This document shows positions 11,415-43,662 of a stretch of 64,000 nucleotides of DNA, piece by piece (within the stretch, counting starts at the first letter, position 1; the number at the start of each line of letters is the position of its first letter). This stretch comes from an uncultured Lachnospiraceae bacterium (GTDB taxonomy: Bacteria > Bacillota > Clostridia > Lachnospirales > Lachnospiraceae). The position numbers and the translations under genes are program-made. The stretch covers positions 2,782 to 66,781 of the forward strand of contig CAJUEI010000003.1 of assembly GCA_910585255.1 (NCBI GenBank). The letters run 5' to 3'. The notes beneath the pieces are model-generated. The model worked only from the letters and a program-made list of their open reading frames with translations, was not told where the DNA came from and did no database searches.

Positions 11415-11415
11415 A

Positions 11416-22050: not shown

Positions 22051-22097
22051 ATCAAGACAAAAGTTTGGAAACTGGGAAAGGACTTGTGTGAGGAATC

Positions 22098-23495: not shown

Positions 23496-23581
23496 GGTGA
23501 TCTGGGATTGATTAGAGGGTGCCAGGGTGGAATAGAAATAACAGAAGAAATTGGGTATGGCGGAAAGGAAAAGGTTGAAAT

Positions 23582-24981: not shown

Positions 24982-25155
24982 GGCTGTTTTTTTCTGCTTG
25001 TAGAGTTGTTGTGGGTGTGCCTTTGGATTATTGGATTGTGTTTGATTGGGGATGATAGAGTGTTTGTTGGGGTGCAGCGGTGGTTAGGGAAAATCCTTTG
25101 TTTTTAGGCATGGGGTGTGTCAATAGAATGGATAGAGTAAGTGAGGAAATTTGGA

Positions 25156-27474
25156 ATGAATCCACAGATGATATTAAAACAATACTTTGGTTATGATAAT
25201 TTTCGTGAGGGGCAGCGGGAATTGATTGATTGGATTTTAGAGGGTGGAGATGTACTTGGGATTATGCCTACGGGTGCTGGTAAGTCGATTTGTTATCAGG
25301 TGCCGGCTTTGATGTTTTCGGGGATTACGGTTGTGATTTCACCGCTGATTTCTCTTATGAAGGACCAGGTTTATTCGTTATCACAGGCAGGAATTTCTGC
25401 TGCTTATATTAATAGTTCTTTGAGTGATGCACAGATATATAGAACGTTTAAAAATGCCGGATTGGGAAAGTATAAAATTCTTTATATTGCACCGGAACGG
25501 CTGGATACTTCATTATTTTTGGAGTTTATTGCTTATGCGGATATTTCTTTGGTGGCGGTGGACGAGGCACACTGTGTTTCGCAGTGGGGGCAGGATTTTA
25601 GACCTAGTTATCTGAATATTGCACCGTTTGTAGCACAGCTTCAAAAGCGACCAGTTTTGTGTGCATTTACTGCTACTGCTACCAGTGAGGTAAAAGATGA
25701 TATTTTATGTATTTTAGGATTGAGACAGCCGAAGTTGTTAATTACGGGGTTTGATCGGAAGAATCTGTATTTTGCGGTAAAGCATGTGAAAAAGAAGAAG
25801 CAGGAAATCTTGGGTTATGTGAAGGAACATCGGGATCAGTGTGGGATTATTTATTGTTCTACTAGAAATAATGTAGATGAAGTGTATCAGATGTTATGTG
25901 AGAACGGGATAGATGCAGCCCGGTATCATGCCGGAATGAGTAAGGAAGAGCGGACGAAGAGTCAGGAGGAGTTTATCTATGATGTAGAGACGGTTATGGT
26001 TGCTACAAATGCATTTGGTATGGGGATTGATAAATCAAATGTTCGTTATGTTCTGCATTACAATATGCCGCAGAGTATGGAGAATTATTATCAGGAAGCG
26101 GGAAGGGCAGGGAGAGACGGAGAAAATTCGGAGTGTATTTTGTTTTATGAGCCAAGGGATGTGCATATTAATAAGTTTTTAATTGAGAATAAAGAGTCAA
26201 AAAAGGAACTGACAGAAGAGGAAGAGGCGGCGATTCGGGAACGGGATTATAAGCGGCTTCGGGAGATGACGTTTTATTGTACAACCAAGGAATGTCTTCG
26301 AAATTTTATTTTAAAGTATTTTGGAGAGCGGACTGGGGCAGATTGTAATAACTGCAGTAACTGTCTGACTGATTATGAGAAGACGGATGTAACTGAGTTA
26401 AGCCGGAAGATTTTAAATTGTGTTTATGAATTGAGACAGCGTTTTGGGATTAATATTGTGATAGGAGTGTTAAGAGGGAGCAAGGCGGCTCGGATATTGG
26501 AGAATGGGTTTGATAAGTACCGAACGTATGGAACATTGACAGAGTATGCGGAGAGTTCGCTTCGGCAGATTATTGATGCACTGATTCAGGAGAATATGCT
26601 GATTCAGACAGAGGATCAATATCCGGTGCTGCGGCTGGGGGCGGATTATCTGAAATTAAAGGATGAGGCAAATCGAATTTATATAAGAAGTGAAGTTCGC
26701 CGGGCAAAGGAAGTGGCAAAGCCGGTGGATGGAAAGAAGAGCATTTTAACCAATAAAGGATATGCCTTATTTGAGAAGCTGCGTCTTTTGCGGATGGAGA
26801 TTGCAAAGGAGGAGAATATCCCTCCTTATATTGTATTTTCGGATAAGACGTTAAGTGATATGTGCAGGAAGCTGCCGTTTACGCCGGAAGAGATGCTTTC
26901 AGTAACCGGGGTGGGACAAAATAAGAAGGAAAAGTATGGGCGGCGGTTTTCTGAATTGATTTTGCAGGTGACAGGCGGGGATAGGGAAGGTTATTCCTGG
27001 ACAGAACCGAATTCGTCTGTTGGGCAGAAAGAGGCAGAGATAGTAAAGAAGAAAAAGGAATTAGAGAGGAGGGAATTGGAAAAGAAAAAAGAGTTAGAAA
27101 AAAAGACAGAAAATCATGCAGTAGGAAAGAAGGGAAAGGAAGAGTTTTATTTTACAAGGTGGATGGCGGAGCGGATTAACTGTAGAGGGGATTGTATGCT
27201 GGCTGAATTTGTAAAGAAATTAAATGAACAAATTGATGCAGAGCAGGTAAAAAGACTGACAACTTCTTTTATAGAAAGACGATTAGAAGAGGGAGGGTAT
27301 ATTCACTGTGAACATCATATGCGTTCGGTTGTGATTGTAAAAGAGAAAGGAAAAAGGCAGGGATTTTTTGTTGCACAGCGGATTAGTCAGAATGGAAATA
27401 AGTATGATGTACTGATGTTAAATGAGCAGTCACAGAGGTGGTTATTGGGGAAGGTTGTAGAGAAAAATCTGTAA
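25156..27474 (+). CDS. recQ: ATP-dependent DNA helicase RecQ with an extra C-terminal domain
   Basis: FGYDNFREGQRE, MPTGAGKS, VAVDEAHC (DEAH box), SQWGQDFRP, a zinc-binding C...C..C..C cluster and an HRDC-like segment (YIVFSDKTLSDM). I chose the ATG at 25156. Confidence 0.9.
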   Translation: MNPQMILKQYFGYDNFREGQRELIDWILEGGDVLGIMPTGAGKSICYQVPALMFSGITVVISPLISLMKDQVYSLSQAGISAAYINSSLSDAQIYRTFKNAGLGKYKILYIAPERLDTSLFLEFIAYADISLVAVDEAHCVSQWGQDFRPSYLNIAPFVAQLQKRPVLCAFTATATSEVKDDILCILGLRQPKLLITGFDRKNLYFAVKHVKKKKQEILGYVKEHRDQCGIIYCSTRNNVDEVYQMLCENGIDAARYHAGMSKEERTKSQEEFIYDVETVMVATNAFGMGIDKSNVRYVLHYNMPQSMENYYQEAGRAGRDGENSECILFYEPRDVHINKFLIENKESKKELTEEEEAAIRERDYKRLREMTFYCTTKECLRNFILKYFGERTGADCNNCSNCLTDYEKTDVTELSRKILNCVYELRQRFGINIVIGVLRGSKAARILENGFDKYRTYGTLTEYAESSLRQIIDALIQENMLIQTEDQYPVLRLGADYLKLKDEANRIYIRSEVRRAKEVAKPVDGKKSILTNKGYALFEKLRLLRMEIAKEENIPPYIVFSDKTLSDMCRKLPFTPEEMLSVTGVGQNKKEKYGRRFSELILQVTGGDREGYSWTEPNSSVGQKEAEIVKKKKELERRELEKKKELEKKTENHAVGKKGKEEFYFTRWMAERINCRGDCMLAEFVKKLNEQIDAEQVKRLTTSFIERRLEEGGYIHCEHHMRSVVIVKEKGKRQGFFVAQRISQNGNKYDVLMLNEQSQRWLLGKVVEKNL

Positions 27475-27482: not shown

Positions 27483-27509
27483 TAAATTATTTATTAAATC
27501 TACCGATAT
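27483..27509 (+). promoter_or_regulatory. Sigma-28 (SigD/FliA) type promoter for flaG-fliD-fliS
   Basis: TAAA (27483-27486), a 15-nt spacer, then ACCGATAT (27502-27509), against the consensus TAAA-N15-GCCGATAT. Confidence 0.75.
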
Positions 27510-27586
27510 GTATAGTAGAAATGGAGAACACGGATGTACTCCTTTATTTATAATAGTTTTATTAAAAATACACGGAGGTGATTTTA

Positions 27587-28033
27587 ATGGCAATCGAATC
27601 AGTTGCGAATGTAGGAATGGGAAATGCAGCATCTTATCAAACAACTGTATCCAAGGCACCAAAAGCAGTGGAGGCTGTGACAGAGCCGGTAAAGGTAGCA
27701 CCGAAGCCAGCGGTAAAGTCACAGATTACAGAAGGAGTAACACCGAACAGCAGTGAGGGAAAGGAATTTTCGGCTAGTAGTGCAGCAGATACATTAAAGA
27801 TGCAGAATGAGATGACACAAGAAAAAGTGCATAAAGCATTGGACGATATCAATAGAAAATTGTCTTCTACATCTTGTGAGTATGGTTACGATGATACAAC
27901 AAACCGAGTAACAATTAAAATTATTGATAAGGAAACAGATGAAGTAATCAGAGAACTTCCGCCGGAGAAAACATTGGAAATGATTGCAAAGGCATGGGAG
28001 CTGGCTGGATTGTTGGTAGATGAGCGGTTGTAA
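27587..28033 (+). CDS. flaG: Flagellar protein FlaG
   Basis: The C-terminal YGYDDTTNRVTIKIIDKETDEVIRELPPEKTLEMI is the FlaG signature. I chose the ATG at 27587, 10 nt after GGAGG. Confidence 0.8.
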   Translation: MAIESVANVGMGNAASYQTTVSKAPKAVEAVTEPVKVAPKPAVKSQITEGVTPNSSEGKEFSASSAADTLKMQNEMTQEKVHKALDDINRKLSSTSCEYGYDDTTNRVTIKIIDKETDEVIRELPPEKTLEMIAKAWELAGLLVDERL

Positions 28034-28045
28034 GGAGGGAAAAAT

Positions 28046-29563
28046 ATGCCAATTAGAATATCGGGTATGATATCAGGTATGGATACCGATGCTATGGTAA
28101 AAGAATTAGTATCGGCATATCAGACTAAAACAGACAAATATAAGAAAGCACAAACAAAATTAGAGTGGAAGCAGGATGCGTGGAAGGAACTAAATTCAAA
28201 GATATATAAGTTATATACAAATATGTTTAGTCGGACGTTATCTTCAAATTATAATAAAAAGAAGACGGTAAGTTCAGATGAATCAAAGGCATCTGTAGTA
28301 GCTGCGAATGGTTCTGTAATAGGAACACAAACATTAAAAATTAACAAACTTGCAAAATCTGGTTATTTAACAGGTGCAGAAATTGAGACAGAGAGTGGAG
28401 AACATGCGACAGCTGATACAACTCTTAGTGAGCTTGGAATTACAGATGCAACTAGTTTTAAAATTAAAGTAGGTAAGGAAGAACAGACAATTGAGTTGAC
28501 TGGTTCAATGAAAATCGGTGATTTGGTTAAGGAATTAAATAAAACAGGTGTAACAGCTAGTTTTGATGAAAAGAATCAAAGATTTTTTATTAGTTCCAAG
28601 TCTAGTGGAGGAGCAAATAATTTTGAAATTGATTCAGATGATACACAAGCATTAGAAGCATTAGGTTTAAAATATTCTACTAAAGATAGTGAAAATGTAG
28701 GTTCAAAGGAAGCTCATAAGGTTACAGGTACTGATGCAGAGATTGTATTAAATGGAGCAACATTTACTTCTGAAACAAATAGTTTTAGTATTAATGGATT
28801 GACTATTACAGCAAAAGCAGTAACAGATAAAGATACAAATGAGACTCTTACTTTATCAACAGATACAGATGTAGATGCAATTTATGATTCTATTAAAGAG
28901 TTTATAAAAGAATATAATGAATTGATTAAGGAAATGGATACTCTTTATAATGCAAAATCAGCAAAGGGTTATGAACCATTGACAGATGAAGAAAAAGATG
29001 CTATGTCTGATACGGAAGTGGAAAAGTGGGAAAGTAAGATTAAGGATTCATTATTAAGAAGAGATCAGACTTTGGGCAGCGTAACTTCTCTTATGAAAAA
29101 TGTAATGCAGAAATCTTTTGAAATAGATGGAGAAAAATTATCTCTTTCAAGTTTTGGAATAGCAACGGCAGGATATTTTGATTCTGGTGAAAATGAAAAA
29201 GGTTTGTATCATATTGATGGAGATCCAAATGATTCTTCAACAAAAGGAAACAGTGACAAATTAAAGACAATGATTGCATCTGATCCAGATAAAGTAGCAT
29301 CTTTCTTCAGTCAATTGTCGAAGAGTCTTTATGACGAATTAGGAAAAAAGATGACTTCCACTTCATTAAGCAGTGCGTTTACTGTATATAATGATAAACA
29401 GATGAAGAGTGAGTATGATAACTATACAAAAACGATTAAGAAATGGGAAGATTATGTAACAGAGCAAGAAGAGAAATGGTTTAAAAAATTTTCCGCAATG
29501 GAGTCTGCACTTGCAAAATTACAGTCTAGTACATCTGCTTTATCAGGATTATTAGGCAGTTAA
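28046..29563 (+). CDS. fliD: Flagellar filament cap protein FliD (hook-associated protein 2)
   Basis: N-terminal ISGMISGMDTDAMVKELV and C-terminal FSAMESALAKLQSSTSALSG coiled-coil signatures. Position next to fliS. Confidence 0.9.
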   Translation: MPIRISGMISGMDTDAMVKELVSAYQTKTDKYKKAQTKLEWKQDAWKELNSKIYKLYTNMFSRTLSSNYNKKKTVSSDESKASVVAANGSVIGTQTLKINKLAKSGYLTGAEIETESGEHATADTTLSELGITDATSFKIKVGKEEQTIELTGSMKIGDLVKELNKTGVTASFDEKNQRFFISSKSSGGANNFEIDSDDTQALEALGLKYSTKDSENVGSKEAHKVTGTDAEIVLNGATFTSETNSFSINGLTITAKAVTDKDTNETLTLSTDTDVDAIYDSIKEFIKEYNELIKEMDTLYNAKSAKGYEPLTDEEKDAMSDTEVEKWESKIKDSLLRRDQTLGSVTSLMKNVMQKSFEIDGEKLSLSSFGIATAGYFDSGENEKGLYHIDGDPNDSSTKGNSDKLKTMIASDPDKVASFFSQLSKSLYDELGKKMTSTSLSSAFTVYNDKQMKSEYDNYTKTIKKWEDYVTEQEEKWFKKFSAMESALAKLQSSTSALSGLLGS

Positions 29564-29577
29564 AGGAGGAACCAAAT

Positions 29578-29955
29578 ATGGCAGCATCTGGGTATAATGC
29601 ATACCAGCAGAATAAAATTGCAACAGCGTCACCAGCAGATCTTACACTTATGCTTTATGAGGGAGCAATTAAGTTTTGTAATATAGCAATAGTAGGGATT
29701 GAGCAAAAGGATATTCAAAAGGCACATGATAATATTAAAAAAGTAGAAGCTATTATTGTAGAATTTCGTTCTACATTAGATTTTAAATATGAGGTAGCAA
29801 AGGATTTTGACAATGTGTATGAATATCTTTATGACCGTCTGATAGAAGCAAATATTAAGAAAGATAAAGAAATACTGGAAGAAGTATTGGGGCATTTACG
29901 TGGGATGCGTGATACTTGGAAAGAAGTTATGGTAAGGGCAAAACAAAAATCATAA
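29578..29955 (+). CDS. fliS: Flagellin-specific export chaperone FliS
   Basis: YQQNKIATASPADLTLMLYEGAIKF is the typical FliS N-terminus. 125 aa. Confidence 0.9.
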   Translation: MAASGYNAYQQNKIATASPADLTLMLYEGAIKFCNIAIVGIEQKDIQKAHDNIKKVEAIIVEFRSTLDFKYEVAKDFDNVYEYLYDRLIEANIKKDKEILEEVLGHLRGMRDTWKEVMVRAKQKS

Positions 29956-29964
29956 AAAGTGATA

Positions 29965-30030
29965 GAAAGTTTCCTGTTTATATTAATTTGTTGTATTGAA
30001 TTAATATAACAGGAAAATTTCTTATTTATA
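29965..30030 (+). terminator. Long AT-rich hairpin, probable terminator or attenuator after fliS
   Basis: GAAAGTTTCCTGTTTATATTAATT pairs with GAATTAATATAACAGGAAAATTTC (one bulge, one mismatch) and is followed by TTCTTATTT. Confidence 0.55.
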
Positions 30031-30049
30031 GAAAGAGGTAAGAACGGGG

Positions 30050-30526
30050 ATGGAAAAAAATTATTTAAAGATTATGATTGGTAGTTTATATAAGAAAATT
30101 GCAGTTTTGGATGATATTTCAGAAGAAAATGAAAAACAGAGATTATTGTTTCTGAAGGAGGATATAGAACCAGAGGATTTAGAAGAAACATTAGAAAGGA
30201 AACAAGAGTTGATCGATAAATTAAATGAGTTAGATGAAGGTTTTCAGTCAATTTATGATAGATTAAAAGAAGAGTTGCAAGGACATCCAGAAAAGTATAA
30301 AGATGAAGTAAAAGAAATGAAAGAATTAATTAGTCAAATTACAGGAAAAAGTATGGTGGTACAGACAGAGGAGGAACGAAATAAATTGGCAGTACAGGAA
30401 TACTTTAGCAGGTTTAAGAGCGGGATTCGTCAGGCAAGAACCAGTCAGAAGGCAGCAGTAAATTATTATAATAATATGAATAAATTAAATCATATAGGAG
30501 CACAGTTTATGGATCGGAAGAAATAG
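30050..30526 (+). CDS. Small coiled-coil protein, FlgN/FliT-like flagellar chaperone, putative
   Basis: 158 aa, all-helical and E/K-rich, positioned between fliS and a flagellin gene. I recognised no sharper motif. Confidence 0.4.
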   Translation: MEKNYLKIMIGSLYKKIAVLDDISEENEKQRLLFLKEDIEPEDLEETLERKQELIDKLNELDEGFQSIYDRLKEELQGHPEKYKDEVKEMKELISQITGKSMVVQTEEERNKLAVQEYFSRFKSGIRQARTSQKAAVNYYNNMNKLNHIGAQFMDRKK

Positions 30527-30702
30527 TATTAGGAAGAGTATTTTTATGTTGATGTAAAATTGAAGATATAAAAAAGTTATAAATTTTTAATTTGAAATAA
30601 TGTTAAATATAGTGGGAAATTAAATTAAGCAATTATTGTGTATGATAAAAGAAGAAATAATCAAGGATAAGATTAATTTTAAGATTGCAGGGAGGCTGAC
30701 AT

Positions 30703-33700
30703 ATGCAAATAATAGCACACAATTTAGCATCTATGTTTACAAACAGACAACTAAATATTACAACAAAGAATAAGTCTAAAGCTGTAGAAAAGTTATCGTC
30801 TGGTTATCGAGTAAATCGAGCGGCAGATGATGCGGCAGGTTTATCAATTTCAGAAAAAATGCGTTATCAAATTCGGGGGTTAGATCGAGGAAGCAAAAAT
30901 ACAGAGGAAGGTATCTCTTTTATTCAAGTAGCAGATGGAGCAATGCAGGAAATTCATTCTATGATTCAACGGATTAGAGAACTTTCAGTACAAGCATCAA
31001 ATGATACAAATACAACATCTGATAAACAATGTATTAATGAAGAAATTAAACATATCAGAAATGAAATTAACAGAGTTTGTGCAGATACAGAATTTAATAA
31101 TCAACCAGTATTTGAAAATTCTGCAGTATCAATAGAAATTGGGAGAAGACCAGAAGATTTACAGATATTTGATGCTACTTATGATGATGGAACAGGACAA
31201 GTGACGTATGGAGGTTTTATTTTTCATGGGGAAAGACTTACTTGGGACATGATAGATCCTGATATGGTAAAAACGGATACAATAACGGGAGAACAAATTT
31301 TTTTAGGTGGAGATTATACTTATACGGATCAGGATACAGGATATACATTTCAGATTTCTTGTAATGTTGGTGATACTGTTCCTAAAATTAGTAGAACAAT
31401 TAATATTTCTGCAGATAATAAAGGGGTTATAGTAGATGGAAAACATTTTTCTTGGTATCATTTAAGTGATAAAGATGGAAAATTACTTTCAGATCATACT
31501 ATTCATGCTGGAATATGGAATTTAAATTATCAAGGAACAAATATTGAATTTCAAGTGGGAGCAAGTGCTAATACTGTTTCGGATATGGCAAAAGCGATTA
31601 ATTCTATGGATTATGTATGTGAAATCATATATAGTGGTGTGACTGAAGAAAAGGCAGTAGATGCAGATGTAATAAAAAATTTACGTGTTTCGAACAATTT
31701 ACTTAATATTTTGGGTGGCTCAGATAAATTGGATATCCGGGTTAGAGCAGGGAAGGATGCAGTAAATCAACAGGATGGTATTTGGTTGGAAAAGAGTGAT
31801 GGGACAGTGATAGCAGGTTCTTATCGAACATGGGCAAGTATGGGAATTACTTCATGGGATTCAGGAAAAGATATTAATAGTTCTTATAGTTATATTTACC
31901 ATGATGATGATGGAAGTAATGATACTTATTTTTCATTTGAATATAATTTATCAGATGTAACAAGTGTTGATTCTGTAATTGATGGATTGGATAATATGGT
32001 GATTTGTTCAGATGGAGTTACAACGAAATATGGGATTAATACAAGTGTAACAATTCCGAAAGATGGAAATTTAATTTCTGCAACACATAATCATAATGGA
32101 GAAAATATTTCTTTTCAAGAAGAGAAAGTTTTAGGAAGAGATTTTGATAAGAAGCAGATTAATGGAGTAGCAAGTACAGATCTTGTATATGATTCAAAAA
32201 GTAGCAACGTAAAAGCTATATTTGCAGATGCAAATGGAAATCCAGTCATTACCTATAATGGAAGTACAACACAAATAGAAAAGGAATTGTATACCGATTT
32301 AACATCTTATATTTCTTATGTATTAAGCAGAAAAAAGGCTCTTGCACTTAATGGAAAAGATCCGCAGAAAGAGGATTTAACAAAAGGAGATTTGTCACAG
32401 ATAGTAGGAGCAGGAAATATTACATCATCTGGTTATTTTGATGAAGTAATAACAATTGATAGTACTTCTATGAAGCTGACAAATGGAGCTCCTGGAGTAG
32501 ATGGTGTAAAATATCCGGGTGCATATATTGATTTTTCTGATTTTGGAAATACTTATACAGCCGATACTTTGATTGGATTAGGATTTAATTCTACTTGTAA
32601 GACGTGTTCGAATCACTATAGTATTGTATTTGTAGAAGATGCATCTTTAAGTACTACACCACAGGGATATAAATATAATTATAAGTCACAGAATAATGAT
32701 TATGCACTTCAGATTGATATAAATTCTATCAATGCAAAGAATGGAGAAGAATTAGCAAGTGCTTTAATTGATATTGTTTCAGAGTGTTTTGATTTTCATT
32801 TTACACAATATGCAGCAGAAGGAAGTAAATTGTATATTTATGATAATAGACCAAGTAATAGTGGAACCATGGATGCAACTTTTGAAACAAAACCACATCT
32901 TGATATTTATAAGGATGTATTTTCTGTTTCTTTAAATACTAATGATGGGAAAACTTTAAATTTTAACTATACTTATGATTATGAAGATATAAAAGATGAT
33001 GTTATTGTAGAGATGGTACAGGATAATAATGGAGATTATATACAAAGGGGAGATGGAAGCTACGAGAAATACGATTCTTCAGATGCGTCTATGGTAGGAA
33101 GTCAAAGATATAATTTAAATGTGAGTTATAAAAAACATTCGGATTCATCTGTTGCAGTGGGGATAGATGAACTGATTCGTGATTGTACAGAAGGTGCATT
33201 AACAGAAATGATTCAAAATTCACATGTCCGGTTAGATGCAAAAGATTATACTTATATGCAAATTTCTGGTGATGAGAGTCCAAATGTTGCAATTAAGGCT
33301 GTATTTACTCCTAATATAGCAGAAAAATATCTGGATAAGGGATTAATTATTCAGAATAGTTCTAATAGCAAAGACATTGTTAAAATTCCAAGATTTTCGG
33401 TTAATACATCACTCCTAAAATTAGATGATATTGATGTGGAGAGTTATGAGGCAGCACAAAATACGATTCGCTGTTCTGATTATGCAATTAATTATATTTC
33501 AAGTAAGAGAAGTTTGTATGGGGATTACCAGAATCGTTTAGAATATATATATAATAATAGTAGGAACACTTTGGAAAATACACAGGCAGCAGAGTCACGA
33601 ATTCGTGATGCAGATATGGCAAAGGAAATGGTATCTTATTCTAAAAGTATATTGTTAGAACAAGTGACACAAACGATGCTTTCTCAGGCAAATCAGCAAA

Positions 33701-33732
33701 AAGATAGTGTGATGCAATTATTACAAGAATAA
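30703..33732 (+). CDS. Giant flagellin (1009 aa) with conserved D0/D1 termini and a ~750-aa unique central region
   Basis: The N-terminus is IAHNLASMFTNRQLN...KLSSGYRVNRAADDAAGLSISEKM. The C-terminus is YQNRLEYIYNN...TQAAESRIRDADMAKEMVSYSKSILLEQVTQTMLSQANQQ. RBS GGGAGG. Confidence 0.9.
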   Translation: MQIIAHNLASMFTNRQLNITTKNKSKAVEKLSSGYRVNRAADDAAGLSISEKMRYQIRGLDRGSKNTEEGISFIQVADGAMQEIHSMIQRIRELSVQASNDTNTTSDKQCINEEIKHIRNEINRVCADTEFNNQPVFENSAVSIEIGRRPEDLQIFDATYDDGTGQVTYGGFIFHGERLTWDMIDPDMVKTDTITGEQIFLGGDYTYTDQDTGYTFQISCNVGDTVPKISRTINISADNKGVIVDGKHFSWYHLSDKDGKLLSDHTIHAGIWNLNYQGTNIEFQVGASANTVSDMAKAINSMDYVCEIIYSGVTEEKAVDADVIKNLRVSNNLLNILGGSDKLDIRVRAGKDAVNQQDGIWLEKSDGTVIAGSYRTWASMGITSWDSGKDINSSYSYIYHDDDGSNDTYFSFEYNLSDVTSVDSVIDGLDNMVICSDGVTTKYGINTSVTIPKDGNLISATHNHNGENISFQEEKVLGRDFDKKQINGVASTDLVYDSKSSNVKAIFADANGNPVITYNGSTTQIEKELYTDLTSYISYVLSRKKALALNGKDPQKEDLTKGDLSQIVGAGNITSSGYFDEVITIDSTSMKLTNGAPGVDGVKYPGAYIDFSDFGNTYTADTLIGLGFNSTCKTCSNHYSIVFVEDASLSTTPQGYKYNYKSQNNDYALQIDINSINAKNGEELASALIDIVSECFDFHFTQYAAEGSKLYIYDNRPSNSGTMDATFETKPHLDIYKDVFSVSLNTNDGKTLNFNYTYDYEDIKDDVIVEMVQDNNGDYIQRGDGSYEKYDSSDASMVGSQRYNLNVSYKKHSDSSVAVGIDELIRDCTEGALTEMIQNSHVRLDAKDYTYMQISGDESPNVAIKAVFTPNIAEKYLDKGLIIQNSSNSKDIVKIPRFSVNTSLLKLDDIDVESYEAAQNTIRCSDYAINYISSKRSLYGDYQNRLEYIYNNSRNTLENTQAAESRIRDADMAKEMVSYSKSILLEQVTQTMLSQANQQKDSVMQLLQE

Positions 33733-33789: not shown

Positions 33790-33816
33790 TAAAGTATTTT
33801 GAATTAAACCCGATAT
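33790..33816 (+). promoter_or_regulatory. Sigma-28 (SigD/FliA) type promoter of the canonical flagellin gene
   Basis: TAAA (33790-33793), a 15-nt spacer, then CCCGATAT (33809-33816). Confidence 0.8.
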
Positions 33817-33952: not shown

Positions 33953-35161
33953 ATGTCTATGGTAGTACAACACAATCTTACAGCGATGAACGCTAACAGA
34001 CAGTTGGGTGTCACAACTAGTTCCCAGGCAAAAGCAACTGAAAAATTATCTTCTGGTTATAGAATCAATCGTGCAGGTGATGATGCTGCTGGATTAAAGA
34101 TTTCTGAAAAAATGAGAAGTCAGGTTAGAGGTCTTACTAAAGCATCTACAAATGCACAGGATGGAGTATCTCTTATTCAGACAGCAGAAGGTGCTTTAAA
34201 TGAAGCTCATTCTATTCTTCAGAGAATGAATGAATTAGCAGTACAGGGTGCTAATGATACAAATGAAAGCATTGACCGTGATGCAATTAATGAGGAATTG
34301 GAAGCATTGACAACGGAATTAGATAGAATTTCTTCTACAACGCAGTTTAATAAGCAAAATTTATTAGATGGTAGTTTTCAGGATAAAAATCTTCATGTTG
34401 GAGCAAATGCTAATCAGAGAATTGCAATTAGTATTGGCAATATGGACGCTACAACTTTAGGATTAAGAAAGATTACGGGTAGTGATGGAGAAGCAAAAGC
34501 TCAGGAAGGTTTAAAGCCGAATAAATATGTTTATGGTACAGTTTCTGGAACTTATGATTCAACTAGTTCTATGAATTGGAATAAGAAGGCTGCTATTTCA
34601 GCAGTTAAACAACAAGTAAGTACGGTAATTACTGCTAGCCAATATGCACCAAAGTTTGATACTTCTGTTTATTATGTAGCTAATTCTGATAGTCAGAAAT
34701 ATGCTACTCTTTCAAAGGCAATGGCGGCGGATAAATCTGCATATAAACAAACTGTTAGTAAAGATATAACAGCTAATTTTACAAATTATATTACAACTTC
34801 TGCTGTTGAGGCGAAAAGTGCAAGTCCATTAACTCCAAGTGGAGATTTTGATTTAAAGGCACCAAATGTAAGTACTTATGCAAGAGCAAATGCAACTATT
34901 TCTGCAGTTCAGGAAGCTATTAATAGGGTTTCTTCTCAAAGATCTGCTCTTGGTGCATTACAGAATAGATTAGAGCATACAATTGCTAATTTGGATAATG
35001 TTGCTGAAAATACTCAAGCAGCAGAATCGCGTATTCGTGATACAGATATGGCTTCTCAGATGGTTGAATATAGTAAGAATAATATTCTTGCTCAGGCTGG
35101 ACAGTCTATGTTGGCACAAGCAAATCAATCAAATCAGGGTGTATTATCATTACTTGGTTAG
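33953..35161 (+). CDS. fliC: Flagellin (canonical size, 402 aa)
   Basis: VQHNLTAMNANRQLG...KLSSGYRINRAGDDAAGLKISEKM at the N-terminus, LQNRLEHTIANLDN...AESRIRDTDMASQMVEYSKNNILAQAGQSMLAQANQ at the C-terminus. Strong RBS and its own sigma-28 promoter. Confidence 0.95.
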   Translation: MSMVVQHNLTAMNANRQLGVTTSSQAKATEKLSSGYRINRAGDDAAGLKISEKMRSQVRGLTKASTNAQDGVSLIQTAEGALNEAHSILQRMNELAVQGANDTNESIDRDAINEELEALTTELDRISSTTQFNKQNLLDGSFQDKNLHVGANANQRIAISIGNMDATTLGLRKITGSDGEAKAQEGLKPNKYVYGTVSGTYDSTSSMNWNKKAAISAVKQQVSTVITASQYAPKFDTSVYYVANSDSQKYATLSKAMAADKSAYKQTVSKDITANFTNYITTSAVEAKSASPLTPSGDFDLKAPNVSTYARANATISAVQEAINRVSSQRSALGALQNRLEHTIANLDNVAENTQAAESRIRDTDMASQMVEYSKNNILAQAGQSMLAQANQSNQGVLSLLG

Positions 35162-35238: not shown

Positions 35239-35574
35239 ATGTATGATAATATAAAAAAATTGGAACAACAAATAGATGATATTGCTGTTGGATATTTATT
35301 TAGACAAGAAAGAAAGAATATAGAATTAGTAAAGAAGATTGTTCCACAAATACAAGAATTTGTTTTTTGGTTTTTAAATGGGAATAGATATGGGATAGAA
35401 GAAAAATTATACAAAGATTTGAGTAATAATTTGATTTATATTTTAGAGGATATATTGGAAGCTTTAGAACAGGGAGATAGAGTACTTTTGCATGATGCTT
35501 TAACATATGGATTGAAAGAATATTTATTATTATTTTTACAAAAGAAGGAGGATAACATAAATGAATATATATGA
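35239..35574 (+). CDS. Hypothetical 111-aa helical protein, translationally coupled to the Maf-like gene
   Basis: The ORF overlaps the next gene by 14 nt. I recognised no family. Confidence 0.4.
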   Translation: MYDNIKKLEQQIDDIAVGYLFRQERKNIELVKKIVPQIQEFVFWFLNGNRYGIEEKLYKDLSNNLIYILEDILEALEQGDRVLLHDALTYGLKEYLLLFLQKKEDNINEYI

Positions 35575-37420
35575 AAAGAATCTTAAAACATTAACTAAAT
35601 ATTATCCTCGAATAGATGAATTAATTGAAGATGCAAAGATAAATTTAAAACCGGAATTAGAGGTAATAGAAGATTATGCGGATAATAAAGAGATAATTTT
35701 AAAAGTTAAAAAAGATGGGAAAACTTTTTATTTGAATGGAAAACGAAATACACAAGAACCTGCACAGATATGGGTAGATAGTTTAGGAGAATTACAAAGC
35801 AATGCTCCAATATTTATGATGGGGATTGGAAATCCAACTTATTTACAAAGATTAGTAAATCAAGTAGAAAAAAAAATAGTAATTGTTATATATGAGCCAT
35901 CTATTCAAATATTTCTTAAATTTTTAGAGATATATGATTTAGAAAAATGGATGGATAAGCATGTGATTATATTTTGGGTAAAAGGATTAGAAGGAATGGA
36001 TGAAGAAAATATGAAGAGAATAATGGTACAACTATTAAGATACGAGATGCTGATGTATTTTAGAAGTTTAGTTTTACCCAATTATGATGTTCTATTTTCA
36101 GAAGAAGCAGTTAAATTTATGAAAATATGTAGAGATGTTGCAAAAGATCAGATAATTGAATATAACACAAATAATAAATATAATACTGTAGTAACAAAAA
36201 ATTTATTATATAATGCAAAATATTTATGTGACGGATATAAGACAACACAACTTGTAGATGTAATACCAAGAGATATTCCAGGAATAGTGGTTGCTGCAGG
36301 TCCATCTTTGAATAGGAATATTAATAATTTAAAAAAAGCAAAAGGAAAAGCATTTATTATAGCTGTGGATACTGCATTAAAACCACTTTTAAAACAAGGA
36401 ATTATGCCAGATATGTTTGTGTTAGTAGATCCTAAAAAACCATTAGATTTAGTTAGTTTAGAAGCAGTAAAAACAATTCCACTTCTTACATCAATAAGTG
36501 CATCTAGTGATATTTTACAGTTTCATACAGGAATGAAATTTTTTTACAATGAAGGATATTTATTTGCAGAAAAGATTCTTTTAAAAAGTTCATTAAAGAT
36601 TGGAAAAGTAGAGTGTGGGGGTTCAGTTGCAACAGCTGCATTTTCTTTATTATACAAAATTGGTATAAATCATATTATATTAGTTGGTCAAGATCTTGCA
36701 TATACAAATAATAAATCTCATGCAGACGGAACATTTCATGAGATTATGGAAGAAGCGGATACTAGTAATTTTATAACTGTAGAGGGAAATTTTGAGGAAA
36801 AAGTACCTACACGACCAGATTTTAAAATATATCTTGATTGGTATAATATGTATATTAAGGGCTGTAAGGAACAAGTAAAAGAATTATATGTGATTAATGC
36901 GACAGAAGGAGGTGCTAAGATTGAAAATACAGATGTAATGACCTTAGAAGATGCAATTAATCAAGAGTGTAAAAAAGAAATAAATATTCAAGAATGTTTG
37001 GAAAAACTTTCTCCTATGTTAGATGAAAAAAATAGAGAGTGGGCAAAAGAATATTTAAAAAATTTACCAAAGGATTTTTATAAATTAGTAATTAATTCTA
37101 AAAAAGCAAAAAAAATGTATCAAAAATTGGATAAGGTATGTGATAAAAAGAAAATTGATAAAAAAGAATATCAAAGTATTTTAAAAAAATTAGGAATTAT
37201 AATAAAAAATATTGAAGAACAAAGTGTATATCAGCTTATTACATTAACAATAGTTAATGCACAATGTATTTTAAAAAATGAGCAGTTTATGCAAGAAGAT
37301 ACGATACAAAAAGAAGGAAAAGAAATTGCAAGAAAAGGAATATTGTATATGGAAACTGTACAAAAATTAGCAGAATTGTTTGAAGAAATAGCAGGAGAGG
37401 CCTTTAATAATTGGAATTAA
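35561..37420 (+). CDS. Motility-accessory-factor (Maf, DUF115/MptE-like) putative flagellin glycosyltransferase
   Basis: The central IVVAAGPSLNRNI...AFIIAVDTALKPL...PDMFVLVDP...GGSVATAAFSLL...ILVGQDLAY matches the Maf/DUF115 core. Located directly after the flagellin genes. Confidence 0.75.
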   Translation: MNIYEKNLKTLTKYYPRIDELIEDAKINLKPELEVIEDYADNKEIILKVKKDGKTFYLNGKRNTQEPAQIWVDSLGELQSNAPIFMMGIGNPTYLQRLVNQVEKKIVIVIYEPSIQIFLKFLEIYDLEKWMDKHVIIFWVKGLEGMDEENMKRIMVQLLRYEMLMYFRSLVLPNYDVLFSEEAVKFMKICRDVAKDQIIEYNTNNKYNTVVTKNLLYNAKYLCDGYKTTQLVDVIPRDIPGIVVAAGPSLNRNINNLKKAKGKAFIIAVDTALKPLLKQGIMPDMFVLVDPKKPLDLVSLEAVKTIPLLTSISASSDILQFHTGMKFFYNEGYLFAEKILLKSSLKIGKVECGGSVATAAFSLLYKIGINHIILVGQDLAYTNNKSHADGTFHEIMEEADTSNFITVEGNFEEKVPTRPDFKIYLDWYNMYIKGCKEQVKELYVINATEGGAKIENTDVMTLEDAINQECKKEINIQECLEKLSPMLDEKNREWAKEYLKNLPKDFYKLVINSKKAKKMYQKLDKVCDKKKIDKKEYQSILKKLGIIIKNIEEQSVYQLITLTIVNAQCILKNEQFMQEDTIQKEGKEIARKGILYMETVQKLAELFEEIAGEAFNNWN

Positions 37421-37493
37421 AGAGTGTAATTGTATAGTATAATATTTTTCTTGTTATGTTAAAGAACATAGAATAGTTATAAAGAGGGAAAAA

Positions 37494-38702
37494 ATGAATT
37501 ATAAAGTCATATTTTTATATAATCAAGAATTACGCCAAGAAGTTGTAGATTTATGGAATTTGTTTAGAGAAGTGGAAATGCAAGTAGAAGATAAAGAACT
37601 ATTGATTAAAATAGTTGATGAATTAAAGAAAATGGAACATATGTTAGGACTTGGATTAGAAGAAAAATTTTTTGAGATATTAAAACAATGGATTCAAGAA
37701 GATGAATGGTTAGTTGCAAAAAAGAATATATTACAGTATTTAATTAATTTATTAGAATTATTAGATTCTTTTTCATGTAAAAATATAATTGACGATAAAT
37801 TTTGTGATATATATAGATATATACTAAATTTAGGAGTAGATGGATTATATGAACAAATGATACAAGAATTTAATCAGTATTGTGAGAAGGAACCAGTAAA
37901 ATCAAGATTCTTAATGAAGTCTTATAATCGAGTGTTATACTGGGGGGGTATTGATTATGATAGAGGAAATTATGAAATGCTTAGAAATCGGGCTGAATCT
38001 TTGGTAGACAATGCTAACGAATTTATATGGATGTATTTAAAATTAAGTGATTATACATCTAAGAGAATATTAAATAACATAATTATAAATTGGATTACGT
38101 TTTCACATGAAGTTTTAGATAAAATACCTCGTAATCAATATGATCAATATTTTGATTTTGATATTATAAGTGATGCTGGTAAAGTATTTGTAGATGCAGG
38201 TGCTTGTAAAGGAGATACGATAGAGTCTTTTATAAGAAATTATAGAAATTATGAAAAAATATATTCATATGAGATAACGCCAGATACGTTTCAGATATTA
38301 TTAGGTAATGTTTCAAGGTATGAAAATGTGGATTGTAGATGTAAAGGAGTATCGAATAAGTCGGGATTAATGTATGTTACTATATGTGAAGATATAGGGG
38401 GAAATCGATTAGGAGAGAATGGAGATATAGAAGTGCCAGTTGTTACATTAGACGAGGATATTGTTGAAAAAATTGATTTTATAAAAATGGATATTGAAGG
38501 GGCAGAATATAATGCATTATTAGGAGCAAAGGGGCATATTCAGAAGGAACATCCATGTCTTGCTATAGCAGCATATCATAATAATGTTGATATTTTTCGA
38601 TTAGCAAAATTAATTTATGAGATGGATGAAAATTATAAATTTTATTATCGTTATTATGGCGGTTCATTGTATCCAAATGATTATGTATTATATGCAATTT
38701 AA
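37494..38702 (+). CDS. FkbM-family SAM-dependent methyltransferase with a ~200-aa N-terminal extension
   Basis: VFVDAGACKGDT (SAM motif I) and IDFIKMDIEGAEYNAL are typical of FkbM. Confidence 0.7.
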   Translation: MNYKVIFLYNQELRQEVVDLWNLFREVEMQVEDKELLIKIVDELKKMEHMLGLGLEEKFFEILKQWIQEDEWLVAKKNILQYLINLLELLDSFSCKNIIDDKFCDIYRYILNLGVDGLYEQMIQEFNQYCEKEPVKSRFLMKSYNRVLYWGGIDYDRGNYEMLRNRAESLVDNANEFIWMYLKLSDYTSKRILNNIIINWITFSHEVLDKIPRNQYDQYFDFDIISDAGKVFVDAGACKGDTIESFIRNYRNYEKIYSYEITPDTFQILLGNVSRYENVDCRCKGVSNKSGLMYVTICEDIGGNRLGENGDIEVPVVTLDEDIVEKIDFIKMDIEGAEYNALLGAKGHIQKEHPCLAIAAYHNNVDIFRLAKLIYEMDENYKFYYRYYGGSLYPNDYVLYAI

Positions 38703-38854
38703 AGGCTTAATAATAGAAAATGAAAAATATTTTAGCGTTTAAATGTATCATTTTAAAAGATAAATAGCAATGTAAAAGACAAGGTTTTTGTAAAAAAGAA
38801 AGGAATTTAGTTATTAAATATATTAATTTTAATAATTATGGTATGAGAAAATAA

Positions 38855-39895
38855 ATGAATAGATATGATGAATTATATAATTTTAGAATTGCTTCCCGAA
38901 AGGATATTGATTCTGTTATGCTGTTTTTAAAGACAGAGTGGGGAGAAAACCATATTTTAGCAAATGATAAAGAATTTTTTATCTGGCAGTATGGAAATGA
39001 ACAATATGGAGATCATAGTACCATTAATTTTGTATTAATGGAAGATAAAAAGGGAACTCTTGTAGGGGTAAATGGTTTTATTCCATATGCCCCGGCAGGA
39101 AAAAGACGTTATGTATCAAGTGCAATTACAAAAGTGAAATCAGATATAAAGATACCAATGGCAGGGATAGAGTTAATCAAGAGATTTAAAGAATTAGTAC
39201 CGGCAGATGCTTATTATAGTTCAGGTACAAATCCAAAAACAATGATTCCTATAGGGGCAAAAGTATTTCATTATACAACCGGAATTTTACAACAGTATTA
39301 TGTATTAAATCCTACCAGAAAGGAGTTTAAAATTGCATTTTTAAAAGAAGAATTGCTAGAGAAAAAAATGCTAAAGGATATCTGGAAATTAAGAGAAATT
39401 CTATCATTTCATGAGATAAACGAACATTATGATTTACAAAAACAATATGCTTATCAGGGGTATAAATCACCAGAATATATAGAAAAGCGTTATTTTCAGC
39501 ATCCAATTTATAAATATAAAGCATTTGGTCTATATCAGGAAGATCAGATAGAGTATAGTGGAATATTAGTAGCAAGAGAAATTCAGGTAAATGACAGTAA
39601 AATATTACGATTTGTTGACTATTTAGGAGAAATTCGTAATTTATCGGGGATCGGTGTTTCTTTACAAAATTTATTGATACAATCGGGATATGAATATGCA
39701 GATTTTGTAGTAGGTTCTATAGAAGAGGAACTATTGGAAGGTTCTGGTTTTAGATTAAGAAAAGAAGAAGCAATTATTCCTATGTATTTTGATCCATTTC
39801 TTAGAGAAAATATAGAAATTTGGTATCAAAAAAGTAAAGAGGAAATTGTAATATTTAAAGCAGACGGCGATCAGGATCGACCGAATCATCGCTAG
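38855..39895 (+). CDS. Hypothetical protein, possibly a GNAT-fold acyltransferase
   Basis: The N-terminal IASRKDIDSVMLFLKTEWGENHIL...LVGVNGFIP resembles GNAT beginnings. This is a weak assignment. Confidence 0.3.
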   Translation: MNRYDELYNFRIASRKDIDSVMLFLKTEWGENHILANDKEFFIWQYGNEQYGDHSTINFVLMEDKKGTLVGVNGFIPYAPAGKRRYVSSAITKVKSDIKIPMAGIELIKRFKELVPADAYYSSGTNPKTMIPIGAKVFHYTTGILQQYYVLNPTRKEFKIAFLKEELLEKKMLKDIWKLREILSFHEINEHYDLQKQYAYQGYKSPEYIEKRYFQHPIYKYKAFGLYQEDQIEYSGILVAREIQVNDSKILRFVDYLGEIRNLSGIGVSLQNLLIQSGYEYADFVVGSIEEELLEGSGFRLRKEEAIIPMYFDPFLRENIEIWYQKSKEEIVIFKADGDQDRPNHR

Positions 39896-39934
39896 TATCT
39901 TTTAATAGTCAAATGAAGATGTAGGAGATAAAAT

Positions 39935-43602: not shown

Positions 43603-43662
43603 AGACATTTATATAGTTAAAATATAATAGTATTAAAAATAAGAAGAAATTGGAGTAACAGT

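What the first reader, a model, noticed from the sequence alone, without database searches (positions are those of the whole stretch)
30540..33732. Giant 1009-aa flagellin with ten cysteines and no obvious sigma-28 promoter
**Architecture**
- The protein has standard flagellin D0/D1 termini around a central region of about 750 aa.
- I could not match the central region to any family. I looked for HExxH (the flagellinolysin metalloprotease signature) and found none.

**Cysteine content**
- The protein contains 10 Cys, including a CKTC pair.
- Three of the Cys lie within the conserved helical D1 segments (DKQC, NRVC, IRCS).
- The adjacent canonical flagellin has none, and flagellins are generally cysteine-free.

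**Promoter and leader**
- The two neighbouring transcription units have near-consensus TAAA-N15-(G/A/C)CCGATAT promoters.
- The best match upstream of this gene is weak: TAAA at 30621, a 16-nt spacer, then TATGATAA.
- The 5' leader nevertheless has two GGA motifs (30664-30666 and in the SD), as the canonical flagellin leader does.

**Open questions**
- Is it a filament component, a sheath or adhesin-like surface display module, or an enzyme-bearing flagellin?
Basis: partly seen in the sequence, partly recalled or inferred. Interest (0 to 1): 0.75.

Follow-up and report, generated by a model that had tools for sequence, protein, structure and literature searches.

The report
Giant accessory flagellin, putative zinc-knuckle module
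This is an intact 1009-residue "giant" flagellin of an uncultured gut Lachnospiraceae bacterium; its 785-residue surface region is built from three conserved modules with no known relatives, one carrying an almost invariant Cys-x2-Cys/His/His motif that looks like a metal site. It is unusual, but it is a variant of a known kind rather than a new kind of system.

Summary
The ORF at 30703-33732 encodes a 1009-aa protein with full flagellin N- and C-terminal domains, 10 Cys and no HExxH. It has no sigma-28 (SigD) promoter of its own, while both neighbouring units have consensus ones.

**What it is**
- It belongs to a family of about 1000-aa flagellins found in 37 genomes, nearly all labelled Lachnospiraceae.
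- The family is under purifying selection (dN/dS about 0.12).
- The 785-aa insert has three modules (N, Z, C) that also occur separately in shorter flagellins.
- The insert has no Pfam match and no significant PDB sequence or Foldseek match, although the AlphaFold models are confident (pLDDT 87-91).

**The cysteines**
- Only two of the ten Cys matter family-wide: C632 and C635 (the CKTC pair).
- With H699 (145/146 modules) and H638 (135/146) they form a conserved CxxC-x2-H...H signature. I infer a structural metal (zinc) knuckle.
- The three Cys in D1 are lineage-specific.

**Expression**
- Most homologues carry a SigD-type -10 element, so the family is a late flagellar gene.
- In this clade the gene probably relies on read-through from the SigD-driven flaG-fliD-fliS operon, plus a conserved two-GGA (CsrA-type) leader.

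**Dispensability**
- A 99.2%-identical sibling lineage carries three inactivating lesions, so the gene is accessory.

The function of the surface region remains unproven.

The parts
27483..27509 (+). SigD (sigma-28)-type promoter TAAATTATTTATTAAATCTACCGATAT ahead of flaG. It is the probable source of read-through transcription into the giant flagellin gene.
   Evidence: 2 matches in the window, 0.23 expected. The promoter is conserved in L039, L040 and L041.
27578..30526 (+). flaG (27578-28033), fliD (28046-29563), fliS (29578-29955) and a FlgN-like gene (30050-30526). This is the late flagellar operon directly upstream.
   Evidence: Pfam. FlgN scores 28.6 bits, below the 30.5 cutoff. Synteny is conserved.
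30527..30702 (+). Intergenic region and leader. It has no consensus SigD promoter (weak match at 30621-30648) and no detectable intrinsic terminator.
   Evidence: fold z-score 0.36.
30658..30675 (+). Five-bp hairpin UAAUC-AAGGAUAA-GAUUA that presents GGA (30665-30667) in its loop. This is a CsrA-type binding-site-1 candidate. The second GGA lies in the Shine-Dalgarno sequence GGGAGG at 30690-30695.
   Evidence: Fold. The leader block is conserved down to the 66%-identical homologue L041. The canonical flagellin leader has the same layout.
30703..33732 (+). Giant flagellin CDS: 1009 aa, 112 kDa, pI 4.65.
30703..31122 (+). N-terminal D0/D1 arm (aa 1-140), 53% identical to the neighbouring canonical flagellin.
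   Evidence: Pfam; BLASTP; PDB flagellins at E=2e-66.
31123..32367 (+). N-module of the outer region (aa 141-555). It is beta-rich and carries the invariant motifs GG..G.R..W, SWD.G.DI, LSDVTSVDSVIDGLD and EE..LGRDFD. It also occurs without Z and C in other flagellins.
32395..32997 (+). Z-module (aa 565-765). The fold is predicted with confidence (pLDDT 91.4, pTM 0.83) and has no PDB relative. It also occurs alone in 450-760-aa flagellins and at the N-terminus of phage tail-cluster proteins.
32596..32616 (+). C632-K-T-C635-S-N-H638: the CxxC knuckle plus the first His of the putative metal site.
   Evidence: Translation. Conservation: C632 145/146, C635 145/146, H638 135/146.
32797..32799 (+). 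H699 (in CFDFHFTQYA), the distal His of the putative metal site.
   Evidence: Translation. Conserved in 145/146 modules.
32998..33477 (+). C-module of the outer region (aa 766-925).
33478..33729 (+). C-terminal D1/D0 arm (aa 926-1009).
   Evidence: Pfam; 52% identity to the canonical flagellin.
33790..33816 (+). SigD-type promoter of the canonical flagellin gene.
33953..35161 (+). Canonical 402-aa flagellin with no Cys. It is the probable main filament protein and stays intact where the giant gene is broken.

Best explanation
The gene encodes an accessory "giant" flagellin.

**Inferred assembly.** It is probably exported through the flagellar type III system with the adjacent FliS chaperone. 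It would then polymerise under the FliD cap through its standard D0/D1 arms. Its 785-aa acidic outer region would project from D1 as three independently folding modules (N, Z, C) and thicken or coat the filament surface.

**The Z-module.** The conserved CxxC-x2-H...H residues (C632, C635, H638, H699) most likely hold a structural metal ion, probably zinc. This would stabilise an extracellular fold in an anaerobe, where disulfides cannot be relied on.

**Expression.**
- The family as a whole is a SigD (sigma-28) late flagellar gene.
- In this clade the gene has lost its own promoter.
- It is most likely transcribed by read-through from the SigD promoter at 27483, through flaG-fliD-fliS-flgN-like.
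- Translation is probably gated by a CsrA-type two-GGA leader.

**Dispensability.** The gene is not essential for motility and is repeatedly lost.

**Shown:** flagellin identity, modular conserved architecture, residue conservation, purifying selection, promoter layout, pseudogenised siblings.
**Inferred:** filament incorporation, metal binding, read-through, CsrA control, and what the outer surface does.
For: **Flagellin identity**
- Pfam N- and C-terminal domains match over their full length.
- Flagellin models score far above FlgL.
- The arms are 53% identical to the neighbouring flagellin.

**Family**
- 75 clusters of about 1000 aa share the central region.
- 37 genome loci were found, 36 of them titled as Lachnospiraceae, their genera or unclassified Clostridia.
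- An exhaustive search found 394 relatives.

**Modularity**
- Architectures among the fetched proteins: N+Z+C 96, Z only 32, N+C 22, N only 17.
- Shorter Z-only proteins are also flagellins.

**Selection**
- dN/dS is 0.12, 0.12 and 0.22 overall against three relatives, and 0.08-0.09 in the Z-module against the two closest.

**Metal-site signature**
- C632, C635 and H699 are each in 145 of 146 modules; H638 is in 135 of 146.
- Two modules with H638 changed to Y have gained a His inside the knuckle (C-x-H-G-C).

**Structure prediction**
- Models are confident: pLDDT 86.7 for the whole central region and 91.4 for the Z-module.

**Regulation**
- A SigD-type -10 element lies upstream in 19 of 31 family loci, against 13% of control windows.
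- In this clade the two flanking SigD promoters are conserved and none precedes the giant gene.
- No terminator was found between the flgN-like gene and the giant gene.
- The conserved leader has GGA in a hairpin loop and GGA in the Shine-Dalgarno sequence, like the canonical flagellin leader.

**Accessory status**
- Sibling alleles at 99.2% nucleotide identity carry a 4-bp deletion plus Q356* and Q702*, while the canonical flagellin is intact.
- Further decayed copies exist in L007 and L037.

**Precedent**
- Giant flagellins form thick filaments (PMC6248924).
Against: - There is no expression, proteomic or imaging evidence.
- The tools return no model coordinates, so I could not check whether the four putative ligands are close in space. 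Metal binding rests on sequence conservation alone.
- About 8% of Z-modules lack H638, and most of those show no compensating His. The site could therefore have three ligands, which would look more like a catalytic site.
- Read-through is argued from absence (no promoter or terminator detected). The terminator scan is tuned to GC-rich stems, and this genome is 35% GC.
- An unrecognised promoter may exist near the semi-conserved TGTGTATGAT.
- The upstream GGA site is conserved only in this clade, not across the family.
- csrA and fliW were not found in the window.
- Strong purifying selection on a surface region is atypical for a passive coat. It hints at a specific binding or catalytic role that I cannot name.
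Confidence: 0.55

Rival explanations
1. Adhesin or lectin display: the outer modules bind a specific ligand (mucin or dietary glycan, or another cell surface). The filament would then act mainly as an adhesive organelle, with the Z-module metal site shaping or forming the binding pocket.
For: - Purifying selection on a surface-exposed region suggests a specific interaction.
- The Z-module also heads phage tail or baseplate-cluster proteins, followed by Ig-like repeats. Binding modules are common in that context.
- Weak, non-significant Foldseek similarity to beta-jelly-roll GH12 carbohydrate-active folds.
- Polar residues D610, Q702, D714 and R716 are conserved.
Against: - No significant similarity to any lectin, carbohydrate-binding module or adhesin by sequence or structure.
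- The GH12 hits have TM about 0.2 and rmsd about 15 A, so they are noise.
- In phage fibres the N-terminal domain usually anchors the fibre rather than binding the receptor (general knowledge).
- This reading is compatible with, and not exclusive of, the main explanation.
Confidence: 0.2
2. Enzyme-bearing flagellin of a new type: the Cys2His(+His) site is a catalytic metal centre. The filament would display thousands of active sites, as flagellinolysin does, but with different chemistry.
For: - The Cys/Cys/His core is almost invariant, with a variable fourth ligand, as in some catalytic zinc sites with three ligands plus water.
- D610, D714, R716 and Q702 are conserved nearby in sequence.
- There is precedent for enzymatic flagellins (PMC5595980).
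Against: - No HExxH or other recognised catalytic motif.
- No Pfam, NCBIfam, PDB-sequence or Foldseek link to any enzyme.
- A CxxC knuckle with two His is the typical signature of a structural zinc site (general knowledge).
- The Z-module is dispensable in N+C family members such as P0074 and P0075.
Confidence: 0.1
3. The CxxC pair is a redox-active or structural disulfide rather than a metal site.
For: - CxxC is the classic dithiol/disulfide motif (general knowledge).
- The protein is extracellular.
Against: - Two His co-conserved with the Cys pair are not explained by a disulfide.
- The hosts are strict gut anaerobes, where disulfides are unreliable (general knowledge).
- The C-x-H-G-C variants change the Cys spacing but add a His.
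Confidence: 0.12
4. The gene is silent or decaying in this genome. It would be a promoter-less relic on its way to becoming a pseudogene, with no present function.
For: - It has no promoter of its own.
- A 99.2%-identical lineage has three inactivating lesions, and other species carry decayed copies.
Against: - The 3-kb ORF is intact and has a strong Shine-Dalgarno sequence.
- dN/dS of 0.12 against relatives that share the same promoter-less layout shows the layout is compatible with selection for function.
- The leader is conserved.
- No terminator separates the gene from a SigD operon.
Confidence: 0.08
5. The protein is exported by the flagellar apparatus but does not form the helical filament body. 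It might be a secreted protein, or a specialised short segment near the hook or the tip.
For: - The C-terminal domain score is lower than in the canonical flagellin (67 against 94 bits).
- A canonical flagellin with its own strong promoter sits next door.
Against: - The D0/D1 arms match over their full length, with 53% identity to the canonical flagellin.
- Flagellin models score well above FlgL models.
- Giant flagellins elsewhere do build filaments (PMC6248924).
Confidence: 0.07

Closest known systems
Giant flagellins (over 1000 aa; Thomson et al. 2018, PMC6248924; thick filaments in Bermanella marisrubri and Oleibacter marinus)
   Same: - A flagellin of more than 1000 aa, with standard D0/D1 arms and a huge insert.
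- The paper already lists a Firmicutes example, Eubacterium plexicaudatum, which to my knowledge is a mouse-gut Lachnospiraceae.
   Different: - That class is defined by size and arose convergently.
- No homology of the insert to any solved or annotated flagellin outer domain was detected.
- Here the insert is a conserved three-module unit with a Cys/His signature, and the gene is an accessory paralogue.
- I did not test whether the E. plexicaudatum protein belongs to this family.
Structurally characterised flagellin outer domains (Kreutzberger 2022, PMC8931119; Sonani 2024, PMC11532411; for example the 793-aa flagellin 9au6, apparently the Geovibrio thiophilus flagellin of that paper)
   Same: - Outer domains decorate a conserved D0/D1 core.
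- The surface is acidic, as described for G. thiophilus (pI 4.65; PMC11532411).
- Domain shuffling between flagellins occurs.
   Different: - 9au6 and all other PDB flagellins match only the D0/D1 arms.
- Foldseek finds no outer-domain relative.
- The terms cysteine, zinc and Lachnospiraceae do not occur in that survey's main text.
Flagellinolysin (proteolytic flagellins; Eckhard 2017, PMC5595980; NCBIfam NF033876)
   Same: A flagellin whose insert carries a conserved putative metal-binding signature.
   Different: - No HExxH motif.
- NF033876 scores 50 bits against a cutoff of 205 and matches only the D1 flank.
- The ligand set is Cys/Cys/His/His rather than His/His/Glu, and no peptidase fold is detected.
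B. subtilis hag regulation (SigD promoter plus the CsrA-FliW partner switch on a two-site leader; my own knowledge)
   Same: - The leader has GGA in a hairpin loop and GGA in the Shine-Dalgarno sequence.
- fliS and fliD are adjacent.
- Most family members carry a SigD-type promoter.
   Different: - This copy lacks its own SigD promoter.
- csrA and fliW are not in the window.
- The upstream GGA site is clade-specific.

Membership tests
Flagellin (FliC/Hag; Pfam PF00669 + PF00700) | N-terminal helical domain (D0/D1) matched over its full length | tested here: met
   PF00669 at aa 4-140, positions 1-137 of 139, 136 bits against a cutoff of 26.6.
Flagellin (FliC/Hag; Pfam PF00669 + PF00700) | C-terminal helical domain (D1/D0) | tested here: met
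   PF00700 at aa 926-1007, positions 5-86 of 86, 66.7 bits against a cutoff of 23.
Flagellin (FliC/Hag; Pfam PF00669 + PF00700) | Closer to flagellins than to the paralogous hook-associated protein FlgL | tested here: met
   Flagellin Hag model 218 bits. FlgL TIGR02550 scores 70.5 bits, below its cutoff of 127.
Flagellin (FliC/Hag; Pfam PF00669 + PF00700) | Polymerises into the flagellar filament | not testable with these tools
   Needs filament proteomics or EM.
Giant flagellins (Thomson 2018) | Length over 1000 aa with the insert between the D1 arms | tested here: met
   1009 aa, with a 785-aa insert.
Giant flagellins (Thomson 2018) | Produces abnormally thick filaments | not testable with these tools
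   Needs EM.
Flagellinolysin (NF033876) | HExxH zinc-peptidase motif in the insert | tested here: not met
   No HExxH anywhere in the protein.
Flagellinolysin (NF033876) | Match to the family model above its cutoff | tested here: not met
   49.9 bits against a cutoff of 205, at aa 869-937 only.
SigD/sigma-28 late flagellar genes | Own TAAA-N15-CCGATAT promoter upstream | tested here: not met
   None in 30527-30702; the best match ends in TATGATAA. It is present in 19 of 31 homologous loci.
SigD/sigma-28 late flagellar genes | Transcribed under SigD control, for example by read-through from the flaG operon promoter | tested here: inconclusive
   SigD promoter at 27483, same strand, and no terminator detected. 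No transcript data.
CsrA-controlled flagellin mRNA (B. subtilis hag paradigm) | Two GGA sites, one in a hairpin loop and one overlapping the Shine-Dalgarno sequence | tested here: met
   Hairpin at 30658-30675 with GGA in the loop; Shine-Dalgarno GGGAGG at 30690-30695. Conserved in L039-L041. This is sequence-level evidence only.
CsrA-controlled flagellin mRNA (B. subtilis hag paradigm) | csrA and fliW present, and CsrA binds the leader | not tested
   Neither gene was seen among the window ORFs scanned. The rest of the genome is not available.
Structural zinc knuckle (Cys2His2-type site) | CxxC plus two further conserved ligands | tested here: met
   C632 and C635 145/146, H699 145/146, H638 135/146.
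Structural zinc knuckle (Cys2His2-type site) | The four ligands converge in space and bind a metal | not testable with these tools
   No model coordinates are returned. Needs inspection of a structure and metal analysis.

The most novel reading that the evidence does not exclude
The Z-module may be a previously undescribed metal-dependent functional centre (catalytic or ligand-binding), displayed thousands of times along the flagella of gut Lachnospiraceae.
- That would make the filament an enzymatic or adhesive organelle of a second kind, after flagellinolysin.
- The same module on phage tail proteins would then reflect a shared target, or homotypic docking of flagellotropic phages onto the filament coat.
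Probability: 0.15. Interest if true: 0.8.

Novelty: new variant of a known kind. Interest (0 to 1): 0.45.

Why it matters
- **Immunology:** to my knowledge, Lachnospiraceae flagellins are dominant gut antigens in mouse and human (the CBir1-type flagellins linked to Crohn's disease), and the family is abundant in the gut.
- **Selection pattern:** a conserved 112-kDa flagellin under purifying selection suggests that the filament surface does something specific in the gut beyond propulsion.
- **Cysteine rule:** the Z-module would be an exception to the rule that flagellins avoid cysteine. It is a candidate new domain family with a metal site and with no Pfam or PDB relative.
- **Mobility of the module:** it is shared between flagellins of different sizes and phage tail proteins.
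- **Natural controls:** the intact and pseudogene alleles in one species offer a natural experiment on its fitness role.

Tried and rejected
**Searches that found no relative of the outer region**
- Pfam, PHROGs and NCBIfam on the central region found nothing beyond the flagellin arms.
- Profile searches of the central region (A3) and the Z-module (A6) against PDB sequences found nothing. One hit at E=0.1 (8gsy) is not significant.
- Foldseek of the 785-aa model against PDB and BFVD, and of the Z-module model against PDB, gave no hit with E of 0.001 or better. The GH12 jelly-roll hits have TM about 0.2 and rmsd about 15 A, so I rejected them as noise.

**Hypotheses rejected**
- Flagellinolysin, FlgL and HExxH were rejected.
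- Internal repeats in the insert: none by self-BLAST.
- A sigma-70-type promoter or an intrinsic terminator in 30527-30702: no convincing candidate.
- Family-wide conservation of the upstream GGA site was rejected; only 10 of 31 loci have one, so it is clade-specific.

**Searches that were uninformative**
- The search for homologous proteins with the Z alignment returned only one protein.

**Literature**
- I found no description of this family, or of a Cys/His flagellin domain.

**Limitation**
- I could not measure distances between the putative ligands, because model coordinates are not exposed.


Full report
**1. The observation**

The ORF at 30703..33732 (+) is real and intact. It encodes 1009 aa, starts with ATG and has GGGAGG eight bases upstream.
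It has no HExxH.
- Pfam finds only Flagellin_N (aa 4-140) and Flagellin_C (aa 926-1007), leaving 785 aa unmatched.
- The neighbouring 402-aa flagellin has no Cys.
- TAAA-N15/16-CCGATAT occurs exactly twice in the window, at 27483 and 33790, against 0.23 expected by chance.
- Upstream of the giant gene only the weak TAAA-N16-TATGATAA at 30621 exists.

**2. Identity**

The protein is a flagellin, not FlgL and not a flagellinolysin.
- NCBIfam flagellin Hag scores 218 bits. FlgL scores 70 bits, below its cutoff of 127. Flagellinolysin scores 50 bits, below its cutoff of 205, and touches only the D1 flank.
- PDB flagellins match only aa 2-208 and the C-terminal arm.
- The two arms are 53% and 52% identical to the adjacent canonical flagellin.
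- The mature protein is 112 kDa and acidic, with pI 4.65.

**3. A conserved family, not a one-off**

- Searching with the central 785 aa alone returned 75 clusters. Nearly all are 1000-1080-aa flagellins sharing the whole central region at 30-85% identity.
- A scan of one genome per GTDB species found 37 loci. Of these, 36 are titled as Lachnospiraceae, their genera (Roseburia, Acetatifactor, Eubacterium, Anaerotaenia torta DSM 100431, Lachnospiraceae bacterium JLR.KK009) or unclassified Clostridia or bacteria; one (L016) is binned as Muribaculaceae. Most are metagenome-assembled genomes, and several isolate names point to rabbit, goat or deer gut.
- The window's own species is an uncultured Lachnospiraceae bacterium (cluster members MCX4268326-8).
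- dN/dS against three syntenic relatives is 0.12, 0.12 and 0.22 overall. In the outer modules against the two closest relatives it is 0.08-0.21. The surface region is therefore under purifying selection, not diversifying selection.

**4. Modular anatomy**

An exhaustive profile search of 1.84 billion representatives gave 394 relatives. It showed that the insert consists of three separable modules:
- N, aa 141-555;
- Z, about aa 565-765;
- C, aa 766-925.

Among the fetched proteins the architectures are N+Z+C (96), Z only (32), N+C (22), N only (17), C only (13), Z+C (12) and N+Z (7). Most of the Z-only proteins I checked are ordinary-sized flagellins with both Pfam arms.

AlphaFold2 models are confident: pLDDT 86.7 for the whole insert, and pLDDT 91.4 with pTM 0.83 for Z. 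Yet the following find no relative:
- Foldseek against PDB and BFVD;
- profile searches against PDB sequences;
- Pfam and PHROGs.

The recurring GH12 hits have TM about 0.2 and rmsd about 15 A, and I treat them as noise.

**5. The cysteines**

The answer is split.

| Position | Conservation |
|---|---|
| C632, C635 | 47 of 47 aligned giants; 145 of 146 Z-modules of all kinds |
| C220 | 39 of 49 |
| C695 | 27 of 49 |
| C126 | 10 of 49 |
| C924 | 5 of 49 |
| C110 | 4 of 49 |
| 306, 435, 828 | 4 of 49 or fewer |

- The rare positions, which include all three in D1, are confined to the closest relatives.
- H699 (145/146) and H638 (135/146) co-vary with the Cys pair, within the motif GFNSTC-x-TC-xx-HYS...(helix)...x-H-[YF]-TQYA...LY-x-YDNR.
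- D697 is invariant only within the giants.
- Of about eight modules with H638 changed to Y, two have gained a His inside an expanded knuckle (C-x-H-G-C).

A CxxC knuckle with two distal His is the typical signature of a structural zinc site (general knowledge). That is my inference. I could not check the geometry because model coordinates are not exposed. A disulfide does not explain the His residues. A three-ligand catalytic site cannot be excluded.

**6. Regulation**

- The gene order recQ, flaG, fliD, fliS, flgN-like, giant flagellin, canonical flagellin, small ORF, maf is conserved in the three closest relatives.
- In all four loci the SigD promoters before flaG and before the canonical flagellin are conserved, and none precedes the giant gene.
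- Across the wider family, 19 of 31 loci have a SigD-type -10 element (nCGATAn, usually with TAAA about 15 nt upstream) within 200 nt of the start. Only 13% of control windows do. The family is therefore a late flagellar gene, and this clade's missing promoter is the exception.
- No terminator is detectable between the flgN-like gene and the giant gene. Read-through from 27483 is the simplest model. This is an inference.
- The last 55 nt of the leader are the best-conserved non-coding block. It folds into a 5-bp hairpin with AAGGAUAA in the loop, followed by a GGA-containing Shine-Dalgarno sequence.
- The canonical flagellin leader has the same layout: GCAGC-AAGGA-AGCUGC, then CAAGGAGG. This matches the CsrA two-site arrangement known from B. 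subtilis hag (my own knowledge).
- The arrangement is clade-specific, and csrA and fliW are not in the window.

**7. Dispensability**

- Many assemblies of the same species carry the gene in pieces.
- In L042 and L043 the allele is 99.2% identical in nucleotide sequence. It has a 4-bp deletion at codons 102-103 plus CAA-to-TAA changes at codons 356 and 702.
- In those loci the flanking flaG, fliD and fliS genes and the canonical flagellin are intact.
- This broken allele is listed in 54 blocks of the collection. Full-length alleles were seen on about 19 contigs.
- Other species show an in-frame insertion with a stop (L007) or a frameshifted remnant (L037).

The giant flagellin is therefore an accessory filament protein that is repeatedly lost. 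That pattern fits a costly or immunologically exposed surface structure.

**8. Comparison with what is known**

- Giant flagellins are established. They form thick filaments and arose convergently, and a Firmicutes example (Eubacterium plexicaudatum) is listed without characterisation (PMC6248924).
- Outer-domain diversity is well documented: 682 structural clusters (PMC11532411).
- Enzymatic flagellins exist (PMC5595980).
- What is new here is a conserved three-module insert with no detectable relatives, and a widespread Cys/Cys/His/His module in a protein class that usually avoids cysteine.

I classify it as a new variant of a known kind.
- size and unknown inserts are common among flagellins;
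- the Cys-richness is mostly lineage noise;
- the promoter gap has a simple explanation.

The Z-module is what deserves follow-up.

Noticed in passing
L042:3922-6947 and L043:3922-6947 (the counterpart of window 30703-33732): A sibling lineage at 99.2% nucleotide identity carries the giant flagellin as a pseudogene: a 4-bp deletion at codons 102-103, plus Q356* and Q702*. The canonical flagellin and flaG-fliD-fliS stay intact. The broken allele is listed in 54 blocks of the collection and seems to be seen more often than the intact one.
   Followed up: yes
L038:5799-8135 (P0204); L045:8001-9485 (P0178); L044:959-3109 (P0206): The Z-module (CxxC..H..H) also forms the N-terminus of non-flagellin proteins that continue with Ig-like repeats. 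In L038 and L045 these sit in phage tail or baseplate gene clusters (baseplate wedge/J, virion structural proteins, and a roughly 2000-aa lysozyme/NlpC-P60 protein); L044 is too short to show context. Flagellins and phages therefore appear to share this module. IMG/VR scans found no further examples.
   Followed up: partly
L045:5304-6386: A reverse transcriptase (RVT_1) lies inside the phage tail gene cluster, three genes upstream of the Z-module protein. This may be a diversity-generating retroelement. No template or variable repeats were searched for.
   Followed up: no
window 35239-53576: A large flagellin glycosylation island lies downstream. It holds a conserved small ORF with no family (35239-35574), Maf/MptE-like (35561-37420), an FkbM methyltransferase, AMP-binding + LuxE + LuxC acyl-activation genes (39935-43602), glycosyltransferases, epimerases, a deacetylase, NeuB (50731-51771, minus strand) and a TPP enzyme. 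With 170 Ser and Thr residues, the giant flagellin is a plausible glycosylation substrate.
   Followed up: partly
window 10182-24688: Upstream lies a cell-envelope polysaccharide cluster: GT87-like, GT1 and several GT2 enzymes, a 939-aa ORF with no family, Bac_transf and LytR_cpsA_psr. RecQ follows at 25141-27474.
   Followed up: no
window 30050-30526: A 158-aa coiled-coil protein sits between fliS and the giant flagellin. It matches FlgN just below the Pfam cutoff (28.6 against 30.5 bits) and has no NCBIfam hit. It is syntenic with fliS in many family loci, so it may be a chaperone relevant to the giant flagellin.
   Followed up: partly
L007:7380-8100; L037:7450-9300; L002:7500-8010: Further disrupted copies exist in other species. 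L007 has an insertion carrying a stop between D1 and the N-module. L037 is a multiply frameshifted remnant that keeps a readable Z-module. L002 has a replaced N-terminus.
   Followed up: partly
window 62169-63764: An ORF with AAA-ATPase_like and PD-(D/E)XK (PDDEXK_9) domains lies at the end of the window. It is unrelated to the finding.
   Followed up: no
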